Source: Theionarchaea archaeon (GTDB lineage Archaea; Methanobacteriota_B; Thermococci; Methanofastidiosales; SZ-28-30). From it: a stretch of 64,000 nucleotides of DNA. The stretch is from NCBI GenBank assembly GCA_018992685.1, contig JACVGT010000013.1:60228-124227 (forward strand), in the 5' to 3' direction. The notes beneath the pieces are model-generated. The model had not been told where the DNA came from and did not search any database. It was given only the letters and a program-made list of their open reading frames with translations. Positions within the stretch are counted from its first letter, which is position 1. Every line of letters starts with the position of its first letter. Below are positions 30,485 to 37,251 of the stretch, one piece after another. The position numbers and the translations under genes are program-made.

Positions 30485-31816
30485 ATGAACTTCAGACTCA
30501 TCGGAAACCTGAAGCCCATTCAGTTCTTGGTTGCAGGATATGTCGTGATCATCTGCATTGGTTCTCTCCTGTTGGATTTGCCCGCTGCTTCCTCTTCAGG
30601 TACATCCCAGGACTATGTGGATGCACTGTTCACTGCCACCTCGGCAGTTTCTACTACAGGACTGGTGGTGGTGGACACAGGCACATTCTACTCAGGATTC
30701 GGACAATCTATTATTCTGCTCCTGTTCCAGATTGGAGGGCTTGGATATATGGTGTTTGTGGTGGTTATGGTATATGCAGTGGGTAGAAAACCATCTCTCA
30801 CCAGTGCCGTTACACTGCAGCAGTCACTCTCTGGAGTCACGCTGGGGAATATGAAACAGTATCTCAAAGCAGTCCTTGCATTTACACTACTCTTTGAAGG
30901 GCTGGGAGCACTGGTTCTCAGTGTGTACTGGATGGATCAGTTTACCCTGTCAGAGTCAGTCTTCTTGGGAGTCTTCCATTCAGTATCGGCATTCTGTACA
31001 TCAGGGTTTTCAACATTCTCTGACAGCTTCAGCTCGTACCAGACCAGTGTTTTCATGAATGTGGTGCTCAGCATTCTATGTATTGGAGGCGGAATTGGGT
31101 TTATTGTACTCTCTGATCTGCAGAATCTGGTGAGAAAGAAGATCTCGGGCGTGAAACCCTGCAGGCTATCGCTCCACAGCAAGCTCTCACTGTTGATTTC
31201 TGCGGTCTTGATGGTGGCAGGAGCCTTGGTGCTGATCAGTTCAGAGTCTGATATTCCTCTGCCGGGGAGAGTGCTGTCCTCTGCATTCCAGTCAATTTCA
31301 GCCTCCAGCACCACAGGATTCAATACGGTAGATATCGGGGCAATGAGTGCAAGCAGTCTGTTCATGTTGGTTATCCTGATGGTAATTGGGGCTTCCCCCG
31401 GGGGAAGTGGAGGGGGAATCAAGGTTACGGCCCTCGGCTCCATGATGCTTTCGGTGTGGGCTCTCTTGAGAGGAAGAAGAGAGGTCAATGCCTTTGGGTG
31501 GCAGATCCCTGAGGAAACAGTGCGAAGATCTTTTGCTGTGGCTTCACTGGTTGCGGTGTGGGTGGTTCTGGTGACCCTGATTCTTTCAGCTACAGAAGAG
31601 GGTACCTTCTTGCAGATACTCTTTGAAGTGGTATCCGCTGTAGGGACAGTGGGGCTTACCACAGGGCTAACCCCTCTGCTCACGTCTCTGGGGAAAGTTC
31701 TGATCATGGCCACCATGTTGATAGGACGGGTGGGCCCTCTCACCATCGCGTTTATGGTATTGGGGGAGGAAAAGGTGTCTTTTGAGCATGCAGAAGGAGA
31801 CATATTCATTGGATAA
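30485..31816 (+). CDS. ktrB: Ktr K+ transporter membrane subunit
   Basis: Motifs DALFTATSAVSTTGL, QIGGLG, SAFCTSGF, GASPGGSGGGIK and GRVGPLT. Confidence 0.85.
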   Translation: MNFRLIGNLKPIQFLVAGYVVIICIGSLLLDLPAASSSGTSQDYVDALFTATSAVSTTGLVVVDTGTFYSGFGQSIILLLFQIGGLGYMVFVVVMVYAVGRKPSLTSAVTLQQSLSGVTLGNMKQYLKAVLAFTLLFEGLGALVLSVYWMDQFTLSESVFLGVFHSVSAFCTSGFSTFSDSFSSYQTSVFMNVVLSILCIGGGIGFIVLSDLQNLVRKKISGVKPCRLSLHSKLSLLISAVLMVAGALVLISSESDIPLPGRVLSSAFQSISASSTTGFNTVDIGAMSASSLFMLVILMVIGASPGGSGGGIKVTALGSMMLSVWALLRGRREVNAFGWQIPEETVRRSFAVASLVAVWVVLVTLILSATEEGTFLQILFEVVSAVGTVGLTTGLTPLLTSLGKVLIMATMLIGRVGPLTIAFMVLGEEKVSFEHAEGDIFIG

Positions 31817-31827
31817 GAGGTGATGAG

Positions 31828-32478
31828 ATGAAGCAATTCGTTGTGATTGGACTGGGAAGTTTTGGAGTGAATCTGGCCATCGCCCTGACTGAAGAGGGAC
31901 ATGAAGTCCTAGTCATTGACGCAGACAGGAAGAAAGTCGAGGCCATCAAAGACAAAGTAACTCACGCAGTGATTGGAGATGCTACTGATAAGCAGATCAT
32001 GTCCGAGATTATTACGCCAGATACTGACACAGTCATTGTGGGGGTCAACGAAGGGATGGAAGCCAGTACCCTGGCAACGTTGTACCTCAAGGACGTGGGG
32101 GTCAAAGAAGTCATCGTGAAGGCAATCAGTGATGAGCATGTCAAGATATTGAAAGCTGTGGGGGCCACCGAGATAATTTACCCAGAGAAAGATGTAGCAT
32201 TGAGGCTGGCTGAAAGGTTGAGCACTCCAAACCTGATTGAACACCTCCCGCTGACTCCTGAGTACAGTATTGTGGAACTTACACCTCCTGAAGCCTTTCT
32301 GGGCAAGACCCTGCGTGGTCTCGATCTACGGAAAGAGTATGGAATTGTGGTAATTGCAGTAAAAGATATGCTCACCAATACCTTCCACTTGATTCCCGGA
32401 GGGGATTTTGAAATCCGACCAGATACTGCCCTCATAATCATAGGAAAGAAGTCCGACATTGAAAGACTGGATGTGTAA
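31828..32478 (+). CDS. ktrA: Ktr RCK regulatory subunit
   Basis: Motifs FVVIGLGSFG and IYPEKD, plus a TrkA_C domain. Confidence 0.85.
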   Translation: MKQFVVIGLGSFGVNLAIALTEEGHEVLVIDADRKKVEAIKDKVTHAVIGDATDKQIMSEIITPDTDTVIVGVNEGMEASTLATLYLKDVGVKEVIVKAISDEHVKILKAVGATEIIYPEKDVALRLAERLSTPNLIEHLPLTPEYSIVELTPPEAFLGKTLRGLDLRKEYGIVVIAVKDMLTNTFHLIPGGDFEIRPDTALIIIGKKSDIERLDV

Positions 32479-32484
32479 AGGTGG

Positions 32485-33030
32485 GTGAACCCGTTGGAAG
32501 TCGAAGTAAAAGCCAGGGTTTCTGCCCTGGAGAACGTGGAGGAGATGCTCTCAGCCATGGGAGCTTCATATGTCCACGAAGTCATTCAGCAAGATACCTA
32601 TTTCAACCATCCCTGCAGGAACCTTGAAGCAACTGATGAGGCTGTCCGCATACGGGTCTCCAATAACTGCTCCTATCTAACGTACAAGGGAAGAAAGGTA
32701 GATCCTCAGAGCAAGACCCGAGACGAAATTGAGCTCCTTATTGACGACTCAAAGAAAGGAAGGAACATTCTCGAAAAGCTGGGCTTCACAGAGGTGGCCA
32801 GTGTGACCAAGACTCGAAGAGTATTTTCCCTCGATGAATTTTCAGTGTGCCTGGACATGGTAGACGGAGTGGGAACCTTTGTGGAAGTGGAAGCGCACAT
32901 GAAGGAATGCCCTGAACCCATCCACTATGAAGCACTGCGTGACAAAGCGTTGGACCTCTTGGAAAAGATGCACTTCACTGACCACGAACGAAGATCATAT
33001 CTAGAATTACTTCTTGAACAGGGACAATAA
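32485..33030 (+). CDS. cyaB: CYTH / class IV adenylate cyclase family protein
   Basis: Motifs EVEVK, QQDTYF, LTYKG, FVEVE and RRSYLELL. Confidence 0.85.
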   Translation: MNPLEVEVKARVSALENVEEMLSAMGASYVHEVIQQDTYFNHPCRNLEATDEAVRIRVSNNCSYLTYKGRKVDPQSKTRDEIELLIDDSKKGRNILEKLGFTEVASVTKTRRVFSLDEFSVCLDMVDGVGTFVEVEAHMKECPEPIHYEALRDKALDLLEKMHFTDHERRSYLELLLEQGQ

Positions 33031-34907: not shown

Positions 34908-35408
34908 ATGGTCCTCAGAACTGTGAAAAAGCGCAGAGTGCAAGCAGACTATGACCGGACAGCAGCGTTCTATGACAAAAGATATCTGGCCATCCAGTGG
35001 GAAAAATACTCTATTATGATGGACAGTCCACTGGAAGGATGTATCCTTGATTTGGGATGTGGAACAGGACTCTTGTCTGAGTACCTTCACAGACGATTGG
35101 TAGGAATAGACATCTCTTTCAACATGCTGGACAAAGCCAGAACTAGAGAGCATGTAATTCAAGCAGATATGGATTTTCTGCCCTTTAGAGACGTTGTTTT
35201 CGACGCTGTGGTATCCTTCACCTCTCTACAGAATCTCTCAGACGTTGGCCCTGCATTAAAAGAAGTGAGACGGGTTCTCAAAAGGGGATCTCCTTTTATA
35301 GTAACCCTTCTAAACAAAGGTTCTTCAATCAAGAATGAAATTGAAACCTATTTCACCATTGTATCAGCAAGACAATGTGGAGAAGACATTGGATTCATAT
35401 GCACGTAA
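34908..35408 (+). CDS. Class I SAM-dependent methyltransferase
   Basis: Motifs ILDLGCGTG, GIDIS and LPFRD..FD. Confidence 0.85.
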   Translation: MVLRTVKKRRVQADYDRTAAFYDKRYLAIQWEKYSIMMDSPLEGCILDLGCGTGLLSEYLHRRLVGIDISFNMLDKARTREHVIQADMDFLPFRDVVFDAVVSFTSLQNLSDVGPALKEVRRVLKRGSPFIVTLLNKGSSIKNEIETYFTIVSARQCGEDIGFICT

Positions 35409-35415
35409 AGCAAAG

Positions 35416-35525
35416 TGGGCCTGCTTGGAGCTTTCTCTCTTTCGAGAGTCTTTCCCTCTTTCCTTTTCAGGATCGAGTTCCGCCGCATTGACACGAGGTC
35501 TTTGCCAGCTCTCCTTACAGACCCA
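35416..35525 (-). ncRNA. Putative structured ncRNA (multi-helix junction, two GAAA tetraloops)
   Basis: GAAAGA-TTTATATA promoter at 35547-35560. Terminal stem 35525-35518/35423-35416. Hairpins CUCUC-GAAA-GAGAG and UCCU-GAAA-AGGA. G.U pairs form only on the minus strand. Confidence 0.6.
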
Positions 35526-35649
35526 TCCTTTATTACAGGAACTTAATATATAAATCTTTCGGTTCAGTCGTGTTACATTAAACTATAGATAAAAAGAAAT
35601 TTCCACTGGAATTGTATCTTGGATTGTTCCCTTCAAAATGAATGAACTT

Positions 35650-36426
35650 CTAAAATTCCTCCAAAATTTCGTAATCTGCAAAACCATCATAAAATAACAC
35701 CTTTTTTGCAAAAATAAATCCTTCCTTTCTGCATTTTTCGACGGTGGGTCGAATATCCCGATACGTTCTTGACACATGAGCTATAGCAATAGTGGTGTCT
35801 GGAAGTTCTTTCTTGATCTGCTTGAGATCTCTGAAATGGACGTGAAATCGGTCTTCAGTTTCCTGGTACTTGCTGTCCTCAAAGTATCTGCACTCGGTAA
35901 CCAGAAGGTGAGGGCTGAGTTCTACAATACGGGCTTGGTTTTCTGAGGAAGAACCCTTCCAGTCTCCTGTGATGAGTACCGTAAAGTCTGTGTCAACCTT
36001 TTCGATAAGCAGTCCAAGGTTGAGAAAAGAGTGTTCTAGGGGAACAGCAGATAGCATTGAATTATTGATGGGGATCTTCTGGTAAGGAGTCACCGGTTTG
36101 AGTACACGTTTTCCTTTTGAATGGTATTTGTACAGCTCTTCATGAAGTTTGAAGCAGCTCGTGCCATCTACTGGTGTGGTATCAAAAGGCGCAAAAATAG
36201 TGATTACCTCCCCCTGCTCCAGCAGGTAGTCAGCTCCTCCTGCTATGCTGCTTCTGATGTGATCAAAGTGAAAATGGGTGATCCAGTGCACAAATTTATC
36301 TGCTCGATTTGAGCAGGCAGCGTCAACACTGTAGTACTTATCCTGAACCCGCACACTGATATACGGATGATAAGGGGCATGGAGTTCGAGTTTAGCGACA
36401 CTGCTGCCAGTCCTGTCAGCCATCAT
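35650..36426 (-). CDS. MBL-fold metallo-hydrolase
   Basis: Motifs THFHFDH, LEHS, ITGD, TEC and HVH. Confidence 0.8.
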   Translation of the reverse strand: MMADRTGSSVAKLELHAPYHPYISVRVQDKYYSVDAACSNRADKFVHWITHFHFDHIRSSIAGGADYLLEQGEVITIFAPFDTTPVDGTSCFKLHEELYKYHSKGKRVLKPVTPYQKIPINNSMLSAVPLEHSFLNLGLLIEKVDTDFTVLITGDWKGSSSENQARIVELSPHLLVTECRYFEDSKYQETEDRFHVHFRDLKQIKKELPDTTIAIAHVSRTYRDIRPTVEKCRKEGFIFAKKVLFYDGFADYEILEEF

Positions 36427-36582: not shown

Positions 36583-37251
36583 TCACAAGTAGTCAATAAT
36601 ACTTGCAATGATCCTGTTCTCTGCTTCAGCCATCTGTTCATAAACAGTGGCAGGCGACAATCCCAGTTCATCTGCCAGGTCTTTAATGCGCACTCTCTTG
36701 GGAATCTCGAAATAGCCCCTCATGTATGCTTTTTTCAGCGTACGCAGCTGTTTCAGGGAAAGCAATCCTTTCAGTTCTACGATATTGATGAAAAAGGAAT
36801 CATCTACATGTTCGAGAGGATGGACTGCAGTTATCTTCACGTCCCCCATATTCTGGAGCATTTCCATCACATTCTTCAGCTTATCAGAATCCGGTGCCAG
36901 GATTCTATAGTGTTTTGCTCCTTTGAAGGTGACGATAGGATTGGGAAGCAGGTAGTAGCATCCCCCTCTGGAGAGGATATCATGGACTTTATATCTGTTC
37001 TCACACCGGCACACACTCTGAGCAACAATTTCATTCTTGTCCTGAGAGAAGACATCCAGTGATACAATAGTATCGTCAGCCTTGGCCCTTTCAAGTGCTG
37101 CATGCAGATGGAGAGGGCTATCACATTCCCACCGAGAAAGGCCCTTTTCCTGATGAATAGAAAACACGGTCATGGTGATATCTGGGAATTCTTGTGAAAG
37201 CTTCTGGGCCCAGCACCTTTCTGGCTTGATCTGGAAGTTCACTTCTATCAT
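36583..37251 (-). CDS. Bat-like (HTH_10) transcriptional regulator
   Basis: LSLKQ...AYMRGYFEIPKR...LADELGLS. Confidence 0.85.
   Translation of the reverse strand: MIEVNFQIKPERCWAQKLSQEFPDITMTVFSIHQEKGLSRWECDSPLHLHAALERAKADDTIVSLDVFSQDKNEIVAQSVCRCENRYKVHDILSRGGCYYLLPNPIVTFKGAKHYRILAPDSDKLKNVMEMLQNMGDVKITAVHPLEHVDDSFFINIVELKGLLSLKQLRTLKKAYMRGYFEIPKRVRIKDLADELGLSPATVYEQMAEAENRIIASIIDYL

What the first reader, a model, noticed from the sequence alone, without database searches (positions are those of the whole stretch)
35410..35560. Unannotated ~110-nt multi-helix RNA with two GAAA tetraloops and its own promoter
Seen: between convergent genes, a strong minus-strand promoter (GAAAGA-TTTATATA, 35547-35560) places the start at ~35525, where an 8-bp terminal helix begins (UGGGUCUG/CAGGCCCA). 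Inside are GGAG/CUCC, UGGCA/UGUCA, CUC-GA-UCCU-GAAA-AGGA-AA-GAG and CUCUC-GAAA-GAGAG, followed by a U-rich tail. Both GNRA loops and both G.U pairs exist only on the minus strand, agreeing with the promoter. There is no downstream ORF to regulate in cis. The 7-bp GGG/CCC-A end and the AGCUGG segment loosely echo a tRNA acceptor stem and D-loop, but there is no TPsiC arm. Inference: a stand-alone structured ncRNA that I cannot assign to a known family.
Basis: partly seen in the sequence, partly recalled or inferred. Interest (0 to 1): 0.8.

Follow-up and report, generated by a model that had tools for sequence, protein, structure and literature searches.

The report
New structured small RNA in Theionarchaea
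This is a real gene with its own promoter for a small RNA of about 115 bases that folds into a stem carrying three hairpins, is kept in several copies in one group of uncultured sediment archaea, matches no known RNA family, and has no known job.

Summary
On the minus strand, window ~35525-35408, there is a ~115-nt RNA gene. It sits 21 nt downstream of an exact copy of the genome's consensus BRE/TATA promoter and ends in a U-rich tail.

It folds into a closing stem (P1 9 bp, P2 4 bp) over a four-way junction with three hairpins (P3, P4, P5). P4 and P5 carry GAAA loops. The fold z-score is -4.3 here and -5.1 to -7.5 in seven homologues.

I found 19 distinct homologues: two copies in this Theionarchaea MAG, three in two sister genomes, and the rest in 15 metagenome contigs. 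Of 35 pairs, 95% of cells are paired, and 12 pairs show double-sided changes against 0-2 in slid controls.

ARAGORN finds no tRNA and Rfam 15 gives no hit. 5S, SRP and RNase P RNAs lie elsewhere in the genome. The next gene is convergent in 17 of 20 loci, so this is not a leader. A conserved ~78-bp upstream module, which includes the palindrome TTCCAGTGGAA, travels with every copy.

The function is not shown. My best guess is a stable, regulated, trans-acting RNA that works through its fold, probably by binding a protein. No RNA-seq data could be found. It is a new RNA family of narrow taxonomic range.

The parts
35601..35611 (-). Palindrome TTCCAGTGGAA, the first element of the conserved upstream module
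   Evidence: The block is identical in 16 of the 17 loci aligned across six genomic contexts; L050 differs at one base. Cross-context identity is 0.79-0.83 for -100 to -23, against 0.42-0.51 further upstream. In this genome the 14-mer followed by a T-run occurs only at the two RNA loci.
35590..35600 (-). T-run ATTTCTTTTTA. It may be a terminator that insulates the RNA promoter from upstream transcription (inferred).
   Evidence: Conserved in all 17 loci as TTT(G/C)TTTTTA. The role is inferred, not shown.
35572..35583 (-). Conserved motif GTTTAATGTAAC (family consensus GTAATTTACTGTAAC), just upstream of the BRE. It is a candidate regulator-binding site.
   Evidence: The function is inferred.
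35547..35562 (-). BRE/TATA promoter CCGAAAGA-TTTATATA
   Evidence: Single match in the window, none in 100 shuffles. It is the genome's consensus promoter and stands in front of tRNA genes at the same distance. It is conserved in all homologues, while the 22 nt between TATA and the RNA vary, with 0.51 identity.
35408..35525 (-). The RNA itself: closing stem, four-way junction, three hairpins and a U-rich tail. The ends are inferred, not mapped.
   Evidence: Fold. Covariance-model hits. Covariation.
35517..35525 (-). P1 5' strand, UGGGUCUGU. It pairs with 35416-35424.
   Evidence: 9 pairs, 96.5% of cells paired. The pair at columns 5/113 is G-C in 11 sequences and C-G in 8.
35511..35514 (-). 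P2 5' strand, GGAG. It pairs with CUCC at 35427-35430.
   Evidence: 4 pairs, 97.4% paired. In a divergent subgroup the P1/P2 internal loop closes; it becomes one continuous 14-bp stem in L049.
35482..35509 (-). P3 hairpin: lower stem, a 2x2 purine internal loop (AA/RA), a 3-bp upper stem, and the loop YUCGU
   Evidence: 9 pairs, 97.7% paired. It is the most sequence-conserved part: only 4 of 22 core positions vary among the five copies found without the search pattern.
35456..35477 (-). P4 hairpin with a GAAA tetraloop
   Evidence: 8 pairs, 6 of them with double-sided changes. The loop is GAAA in 19 of 19 distinct sequences.
35435..35448 (-). P5 hairpin with a GAAA tetraloop
   Evidence: 5 pairs, 3 of them with double-sided changes. 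The loop is GAAA in 17 of 19 sequences and AAAA in 2.
35416..35430 (-). 3' strands of P2 (CUCC) and P1 (GCAGGCCCA), with the AA linker between them
35406..35415 (-). U-rich tail CUUUGCUUUA, the probable archaeal termination signal. It abuts the stop codon of the convergent methyltransferase gene at 35406-35408.
   Evidence: The motif Y(U/C)UUGC(U/G)U is conserved in 18 of 19 distinct copies whatever the context. Its role as a terminator is inferred.

Best explanation
The locus is an independent gene for a stable ~115-nt non-coding RNA, called X here. A strong BRE/TATA promoter starts transcription at or within a base or two of the first nucleotide of the terminal helix, with the same geometry as this genome's tRNA genes. 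Transcription stops at the U-rich tract just after the helix closes.

The RNA folds into a 13-14-bp closing stem (P1 and P2) that carries a four-way junction with three hairpins. P3 is constrained in sequence. P4 and P5 vary freely in their stems but keep GAAA tetraloops, and the strands joining them are conserved and purine-rich.

Shown by my calls: the promoter match, the fold, its conservation with compensatory changes, the copy number, the lack of a cis target, and the absence from known families.

Inferred: the RNA acts in trans through its three-dimensional shape. The P1-P2-P3 axis is likely to stack, because only one nucleotide separates P2 from P3. The two GAAA loops would then pack back against it. 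The invariant P3 hairpin and junction purines would form a specific binding surface, most probably for a protein, making X either an RNP component or a decoy.

A conserved ~78-bp upstream module with a palindrome travels with every copy. That suggests a dedicated transcription factor switches the copies on together.
For: Promoter: the 16-mer occurs once in the window and in none of 100 shuffles. It is one of 7 exact copies in the genome, and the spacing matches the tRNA genes.

Fold: z -4.30 at this locus. Seven homologues folded one by one give z -5.14 to -7.47, each with 0 of 200 shuffles as good and each with the same architecture.

Family: a covariance model finds five copies in 3 of 3 genomes of the genus, at E 1e-29 to 2e-36, and 15 metagenome copies at E 5e-20 or better.

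Covariation: 35 pairs over 19 distinct sequences give 95.2% of cells paired. Twelve pairs show double-sided changes, against 0-2 when the partners are slid, and 0 of 500 shuffles reach the observed value. MAFFT plus RNAalifold, run without the model, recovers P1, P3 and P4 with 9 covarying pairs.

Not coding: homologues differ by 1-nt insertions and deletions.

Not cis-regulatory: the next gene is convergent in 17 of 20 loci.

Not a 3' UTR: the copies lie behind unrelated genes, and in L060 and L056 the upstream gene is on the other strand.

Shape matters more than sequence in P4 and P5. Their stems change with compensation while the GAAA loops stay, in 19 of 19 and 17 of 19 sequences.

Regulation: the upstream module has 0.79-0.83 identity across contexts, against 0.51 for the TATA-to-start spacer.
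Against: No transcript has been seen, because no RNA run holding the locus was listed. The 5' and 3' ends are inferred.

No partner protein, ligand or target is identified, and the neighbouring genes give no consistent hint. They are an MBL-fold hydrolase and a methyltransferase at one locus type, and TrkA/TrkH at another.

The strong conservation of P3 in the metagenome copies is partly built in, because they were retrieved with a P3 pattern. Only the five genome copies are free of that bias.

The A5 alignment was fitted to the model's structure, so it leans towards that structure.

All sequences come from one narrow lineage, so the counts of compensatory changes include inherited events.

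Base-pair counts alone barely separate the strands: 95.2% paired on the sense strand against 92.2% on the antisense strand. The strand call therefore rests on the promoter, the tail and the GAAA loops.
Confidence: 0.5

Rival explanations
1. X is a ligand-sensing or catalytic RNA, either a stand-alone aptamer or a small ribozyme. On this reading the conserved purine-rich junction is a binding or active site, and the two GAAA loops hold the fold together.
For: The junction strands are nearly invariant (the GAA of J3/4 and the GAAA of J4/5), and the GAAA loops are kept while the stems drift. The single-sequence folds are very stable and unambiguous. Compact junction RNAs with GNRA loops are typical of aptamers and ribozymes; that is recalled general knowledge, not a call.
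Against: No ribozyme or riboswitch family of Rfam 15 scores even at E 10 on the RNA strand in three family members. There is no expression platform and no downstream gene. There is no consistent gene neighbourhood that would suggest a ligand. Stand-alone aptamers that act in trans are rare (recalled).
Confidence: 0.15
2. X is a base-pairing regulatory sRNA. The conserved P3 apical loop and its flanks (AGAC-YUCGU-GUY) serve as the seed, and the rest of the molecule is a stabilising scaffold.
For: P3 is constrained in sequence, not only in structure. Multi-copy sRNA families under one regulator are common in bacteria (recalled). The U-rich 3' tail could bind an Sm-like protein (inferred).
Against: The exposed loop is only 5 nt long, and the remaining conserved single strands are purine runs of low specificity. 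A BLAST search of X against its own genome gave no extended antisense match; all other hits are 22 nt or shorter with E above 0.6. I did not run a target prediction.
Confidence: 0.15
3. X is a tRNA-derived or tRNA-like molecule. Its G/C-rich closing stem would be handled by the tRNA machinery (RNase P, RNase Z, the CCA-adding enzyme), so that X acts as a mimic, primer or decoy.
For: The promoter-to-stem distance is the same as for tRNA genes. P1 (GGGUCUG/CAGGCCC followed by an unpaired A) differs at one position from the acceptor stem of a tRNA-Met of this genome. The stem is followed by A-C-C or A-C-U in most copies.
Against: ARAGORN finds nothing, with or without introns. Alignment with the tRNA shows no similarity beyond the stem. 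In other members P1 is GGCUCUG or GGCCCUG, so its sequence is not fixed.
Confidence: 0.07
4. There is no functional RNA. The conservation would then reflect a DNA-level element: a bidirectional terminator between convergent genes, protein-binding sites, or the 3' UTR of the upstream MBL-fold gene.
For: The complement of the purine-rich linkers gives T-runs on the plus strand right after the methyltransferase stop codon, and these could terminate that gene. Pair counts hardly differ between the strands.
Against: A terminator does not need a consensus promoter 21 nt upstream, three hairpins with compensated stems, or invariant GAAA loops. The unit recurs in six different gene contexts. 27 cells are G-U pairs, which would be A-C on the other strand.
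Confidence: 0.05

Closest known systems
tRNA genes of the same genome
   Same: Both have a consensus BRE/TATA ending 21-22 nt before the first paired base. Both have a G/C-rich terminal stem formed by the 5' and 3' ends, an unpaired base after the stem, a T-rich trailer and a four-way junction.
   Different: X has no D, anticodon or T arms and is not detected by ARAGORN. Its closing stem is 13-14 bp, made of P1 plus P2. Two of its three hairpins end in GAAA tetraloops.
Small stable RNP RNAs whose ends pair into a long stem and which end in a U-rich tail, such as Y RNAs (comparison recalled, not from a call)
   Same: Both are ~100 nt long, have a closing stem made by the two ends, an oligo-U-like tail and several paralogues per genome.
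   Different: No Ro/TROVE gene was found in this 91% complete MAG. No Y RNA family of Rfam matches. X has a four-way junction where a Y RNA has an internal loop.
Junction aptamers with GNRA tetraloops, such as the c-di-GMP-I riboswitch (comparison recalled)
   Same: Both have a P1-closed multi-helix fold, a GAAA loop on a side arm and a conserved purine-rich junction.
   Different: There is no Rfam match even at E 10. X is a stand-alone gene with its own promoter and terminator, and the next gene is convergent in 17 of 20 loci.
IMES-5 RNA (RF02995), the best Rfam hit on the RNA strand
   Same: There is a weak local resemblance: an A-rich linker followed by a GAAA-capped hairpin (alignment).
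   Different: The score is 13.9 bits against a gathering score of 96.1, with E 3.3. The hit does not recur in the paralogue or in a divergent homologue. X is not a member.
The ~285-293-nt unassigned RNA-like element downstream of the orthologous MBL-fold gene in genus g4 of the same order, called Y here
   Same: Both take the same position relative to the MBL-fold gene. Both have their own TATA box ~22 nt upstream, a closing helix made by the two ends with an AAA bulge on its 3' strand, a T-run terminator and no Rfam hit.
   Different: Y is more than twice as long and has a different internal architecture. The X covariance model does not align to it, scoring 7.7 bits or less. Homology is not shown.

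Membership tests
tRNA | A cloverleaf that a tRNA finder detects, with introns allowed | tested here: not met
   ARAGORN finds 0 genes in the window. With -i on the whole genome it finds 44 tRNAs, none on C12 or C22.
tRNA | A T arm with a T-loop, a 7-nt anticodon loop, and a D loop with conserved GG | tested here: not met
   Read from the 19-sequence alignment. The hairpin loops are YUCGU, GAAA and GAAA. The D-loop-like AGCUGG of this copy is GCACGC in most homologues.
tRNA | A 7-bp acceptor stem followed by an unpaired discriminator base | tested here: inconclusive
   P1 resembles the acceptor stem of a tRNA-Met of this genome, and nothing else aligns. P1 has 9 pairs and continues into P2.
Any Rfam 15 family (4227 models) | A score at or above the family's gathering threshold | tested here: not met
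   0 hits in the window. With permissive filters, three family members give only different weak hits of 11.8-20.4 bits, all below the 35-96 bit thresholds.
5S rRNA, SRP RNA, RNase P RNA | Being the genome's copy of that universal RNA | tested here: not met
   All three are found elsewhere in the genome above their cut-offs: 5S on C11, SRP on C5 and RNase P on C6.
Archaeal H/ACA guide RNA | An ACA box just 3' of the lower stem, and a K-turn or K-loop in the upper stem (features recalled) | tested here: not met
   After P1 the copies read ACU, ACC, UCC or AUU, never ACA. No 3-nt bulge followed by tandem G-A is conserved. The GA/AA loop in P4 of this copy is not kept in homologues.
Box C/D guide RNA | A C box (RUGAUGA) near the 5' end and a D box (CUGA) near the 3' end (features recalled) | tested here: not met
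   No UGAUGA occurs in any of the 19 sequences. One divergent homologue gave a sub-threshold sR17 hit, 20.4 bits against a gathering score of 36, which does not recur.
Hammerhead and other small self-cleaving ribozymes | The conserved catalytic core, e.g. CUGAUGA ... GAAA for the hammerhead (recalled), or a match to an Rfam model | tested here: not met
   The junction reads CUGU(A/G)AGGAG, not the hammerhead core. On the RNA strand no ribozyme family hits at E 10. One CPEB3 hit of 14.3 bits lies on the opposite strand of one homologue.
Cis-acting riboswitch or leader | It lies in the 5' UTR of the gene it controls | tested here: not met
   The next gene is convergent in 17 of 20 loci. Two loci have a same-strand ORF starting 200 nt or more beyond the T-tract, and one contig is too short to tell.
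Y RNA / Ro RNP | A Ro (TROVE-domain) protein encoded in the genome | tested here: not met
   PF05731 gave no match in G000, which is 91% complete. The control search did hit Deinococcus.
Structured ncRNA gene (generic) | Its own promoter, a conserved fold with compensatory changes, and no coding potential | tested here: met
   Homologues differ by 1-nt insertions and deletions.
Structured ncRNA gene (generic) | A discrete transcript is observed | not testable with these tools
   No run on record as RNA holds the locus.

The most novel reading that the evidence does not exclude
X is the founding member of a new class of compact archaeal functional RNA. On this reading it is a small ribozyme or a stand-alone sensor of a metabolite or ion, built on a four-way junction clamped by two GAAA tetraloops and switched on by a dedicated transcription factor. 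The longer unassigned RNA at the same position in Methanofastidiosa-like genomes would be its elaborated relative. That would make this an order-wide RNA system tied to the adjacent MBL-fold hydrolase.
Probability: 0.12. Interest if true: 0.85.

Novelty: categorically new. Interest (0 to 1): 0.6.

Why it matters
Beyond the universal RNAs and the guide RNAs, very few structured non-coding RNAs are known in archaea, and fewer still have solid comparative support. This one comes with a clean gene model and a covariation-backed four-way-junction fold. It has several copies per genome and a conserved upstream control module. It sits in a lineage, the Theionarchaea, that is known only from sediment metagenomes.

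It offers three things:
- a ready covariance model for annotating such MAGs
- a small, very stable fold suitable for structural work
- a defined regulatory palindrome that could be used to find the regulator

I chose "categorically new" by exclusion and at the level of RNA family. No known family or class could be assigned, and the mechanism is unknown, so this label does not claim a new mechanism.

Tried and rejected
Expression. The search for sequencing runs listed 11 DNA holders and no RNA holder. I did not use read laying, because contigs of DNA runs cannot show a transcript.

Wider distribution.
- Covariance models R1 and R2 were run over the order (34 genomes) and over the class, which equals the phylum here (133 genomes). 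Strong hits appeared only in the 3 genomes of the genus.
- I inspected five of the weak hits: G003 C249, G009, G014 and G015 as alignments, G003 C249 and G002 C9 as sequence. The two read as sequence show neither the promoter nor the conserved motifs; the alignments are poor.
- I fetched G000 C4 but did not read it.
- A scan of viral contigs with the P3 pattern gave 0 hits.
- 3 of the 18 metagenome pattern hits (L054, L057, L062) did not match the model and were dropped.

Link between X and the MBL-fold gene.
- Orthologues exist in 25 of 34 genomes of the order.
- The seven loci of family f4 (L088-L094) were read and show no recognisable RNA gene downstream.
- Genus g4 has a different, longer element there, which the X model does not align to.
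- A canonical RNase Z is encoded elsewhere in the genome.

Remnants of the MBL gene. I had thought that the paralogue loci kept remnants of the MBL gene's 3' end, which would point to segmental duplication. tblastn found no such remnant. Cross-context identity beyond -100 is only 0.42-0.51. I dropped the idea, and the relevant line in note 3 is superseded.

Other ideas rejected.
- The Ro/Y RNA idea: no TROVE gene was found.
- A K-turn, a bulge-helix-bulge intron and an 11-nt tetraloop receptor: I looked for each by eye in the alignment and found none conserved.
- Pairing of the 3' tail with the 5' half of P3 (CUUUGC with GCAAAG in this copy): variation in the tail is not compensated.

Literature. 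Searches were seen as listings and abstracts only. For one search I saw passages of one preprint, 10.64898/2026.10.21.760802. None of them turned up a description of this RNA.

Full report
WHAT IS THERE. Read on the minus strand, the interval between a plus-strand methyltransferase gene and a minus-strand MBL-fold hydrolase gene contains the following, in order:
- the palindrome TTCCAGTGGAA (35611-35601)
- a T-run (35600-35590)
- the motif GTTTAATGTAAC (35583-35572)
- a BRE/TATA element CCGAAAGA-TTTATATA (35562-35547)
- 21 non-conserved bases
- a segment of ~110 nt whose two ends pair (35525-35416)
- the tail CUUUGCUUUA (35415-35406)

The methyltransferase gene is 34908-35408 and matches Methyltransf_11 at E 3.5e-21. 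The MBL-fold gene has its stop at 35650. It matches Lactamase_B_2 and PhnP only below their cut-offs.

The promoter 16-mer is the only match in the window with up to one mismatch, and none of 100 shuffles gave a match. It is the consensus strong promoter of this genome. There are 7 exact copies, and two of them stand in front of the two copies of this RNA. tRNA-Tyr and the two short-intron tRNA-Trp genes carry near-identical boxes ending 22 nt before their first base; 5S, SRP and RNase P RNA genes also have a TATA-like box upstream.

FOLD. The minus strand folds to -46.7 kcal/mol, z -4.30, with 0 of 200 shuffles as good. The plus strand gives z -2.09. The architecture has these parts:
- P1, 9 bp formed by the two ends
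- a small purine internal loop
- P2, GGAG/CUCC
- a four-way junction with three hairpins
- P3, with a 2x2 purine internal loop and the apical loop YUCGU
- P4 and P5, each capped by GAAA

Seven homologues folded separately give the same architecture, with z -5.14 to -7.47.

HOMOLOGUES AND ORGANISM. BLAST and a covariance model (R1, built from four copies) find the following:
- a second copy in the same genome, on contig C22, 81% identical
- two copies in sister genome G001
- one copy in G002

Record titles name these genomes as Theionarchaea or uncultured Thermococci, and protein names agree.

A 22-letter pattern from P3 retrieved 18 metagenome contigs. Fifteen of them carry a full-length match to the model, at E 5e-20 or better, and three were chance hits. 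This gives 21 sequences, 19 of them distinct.

Outside the genus, nothing credible was found in 34 genomes of the order or in 133 genomes of the class/phylum, with either model. I inspected five of the weak hits and rejected them. Viral contigs gave nothing.

COVARIATION. I counted the 35-pair structure on the model-fitted alignment.
- 95.2% of 665 cells are standard pairs.
- 12 pairs carry double-sided changes, in 49 cells.
- When the 3' partners are slid by 1-3 columns, the count falls to 0-2 pairs.
- None of 500 shuffles reaches the observed values.
- P4 has 6 of 8 pairs with double changes, and P5 has 3 of 5.
- One P1 pair is G-C in 11 sequences and C-G in 8.

A MAFFT alignment made without the model, folded with RNAalifold, independently recovers P1, P3 and P4 with 9 covarying pairs. 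It loses P2 and P5 where a divergent subgroup is misaligned. In that subgroup the internal loop between P1 and P2 closes (fully Watson-Crick, one continuous 14-bp stem, in L049) and P5 is lengthened by two or three pairs.

There are three caveats. The sequences are close relatives, so cells are not independent events. The fitted alignment leans towards the structure. And the invariance of P3 in the metagenome copies is partly forced by the retrieval pattern. In the five copies found without the pattern, P3 still varies at only 4 of 22 core positions.

The GAAA loops are kept in 19 of 19 sequences for P4 and 17 of 19 for P5. Homologues differ by single-base insertions and deletions, which rules out a conserved reading frame.

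WHAT IT IS NOT.
- ARAGORN finds no tRNA here, with or without introns.
- Rfam 15 finds nothing at gathering score in the window.
- With permissive filters, three different family members give only unrelated weak hits: IMES-5 at 13.9 bits, Yfr1 at 13.9 bits and sR17 at 20.4 bits, all far below threshold.
- The genome's 5S, SRP and RNase P RNAs are elsewhere.
- No ACA box, C/D boxes, conserved K-turn or hammerhead core is present in the alignment (the motif definitions are recalled).
- The closing stem resembles the acceptor stem of a tRNA-Met of this genome, but nothing else aligns.
- No Ro/TROVE gene was found.

CONTEXT. I oriented 20 loci on the RNA (for gene identities).
- Ten loci fit the arrangement seen in the window: MBL-fold gene, then X, then a convergent methyltransferase.
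- Four loci have X convergent with trkA-trkH.
- The rest fall into other arrangements.
- The next gene is convergent in 17 of 20 loci, so X is not a leader.
- In two loci the upstream gene is on the other strand, so X is not a 3' UTR.

All contexts are ordinary chromosomal genes. Synteny within such a narrow clade is not independent evidence of a functional link.

UPSTREAM MODULE. Across contexts, the 78 bp from -100 to -23 are 0.79-0.83 identical. The bases further upstream are 0.42-0.51 identical, and the TATA-to-start spacer is 0.51 identical. The palindrome with its T-run occurs in this genome only at the two X loci. I read the module as a terminator-like insulator, a regulator-binding site and the promoter. 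This is inference.

MECHANISM. The following are shown:
- a gene with a consensus promoter
- a conserved, compensated fold
- several copies per genome
- no cis target
- no known family

The rest is inferred. P4 and P5 change sequence freely but keep their length and their GAAA loops. P3 and the junction purines are fixed. From this I infer that selection acts on a three-dimensional shape with one specific recognition surface. That pattern fits a protein-bound or decoy RNA best. It fits an aptamer or ribozyme second, a seed-pairing sRNA third, and a tRNA mimic least. I give the whole statement 0.5. The part "real stand-alone structured RNA gene" alone would deserve about 0.9, and the part "acts by binding a protein" about 0.35.

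NOVELTY AND SCORE. I found no description in print in the papers searched. Searches were seen as listings and abstracts, and as passages. Supplements were closed. By exclusion this is a new RNA family. It is confined, as far as I searched, to one genus of Theionarchaea and to related metagenome contigs. A specialist would find it a solid and useful orphan RNA rather than a shock, so I give interest 0.6.

Noticed in passing
window 35572-35611 (minus strand), and the same place in L033-L064: A ~78-bp module upstream of the RNA is conserved in every genomic context. It holds the palindrome TTCCAGTGGAA, a T-run, the motif GTAATTTACTGTAAC and the BRE/TATA. It is as conserved as the RNA itself, which suggests a dedicated regulator and an insulating terminator.
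   Followed up: partly
L095-L109 (genus g4 of the same order), e.g. L103 about 2340-2630 on the plus strand: In 15 of 15 loci the orthologue of the MBL-fold gene is followed on the same strand by a conserved non-coding element. It is full length, 290-293 nt as extracted, in 13 of them. It has its own TATA box ~22 nt upstream, a closing helix UGCACAG/CUGUGCA and a T-rich run. There is no Rfam hit at gathering score or at E 1. RNase P and SRP RNAs lie elsewhere in those genomes. This may be a second unassigned structured RNA, and homology to X is not shown.
   Followed up: partly
G000 contig C26, about 19.2-32.9 kb (outside the window): Repeated ~30-nt units (gttgaaatcagactatg.taggattgaaa) separated by unique spacers came up in a motif scan. 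They look like CRISPR arrays.
   Followed up: no
These are probably artefacts. The other 39 calls include many tRNAs with short introns of 15-63 nt.
   Followed up: no
window 35406-35470, plus strand: The complement of the RNA's purine-rich linkers forms T-runs directly after the methyltransferase stop codon (35406-35408). The RNA gene may therefore also serve as the terminator region of the convergent gene.
   Followed up: no
window 31800-33030 and 36583-37251: The neighbourhood includes a TrkA-like and CYTH gene pair, identified in the sister genome (L046:812-2013), and an HTH_10 regulator two genes upstream of the RNA. The paralogue of the RNA is also next to trkA-trkH. I could not tell whether the repeated TrkA proximity means anything.
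   Followed up: partly
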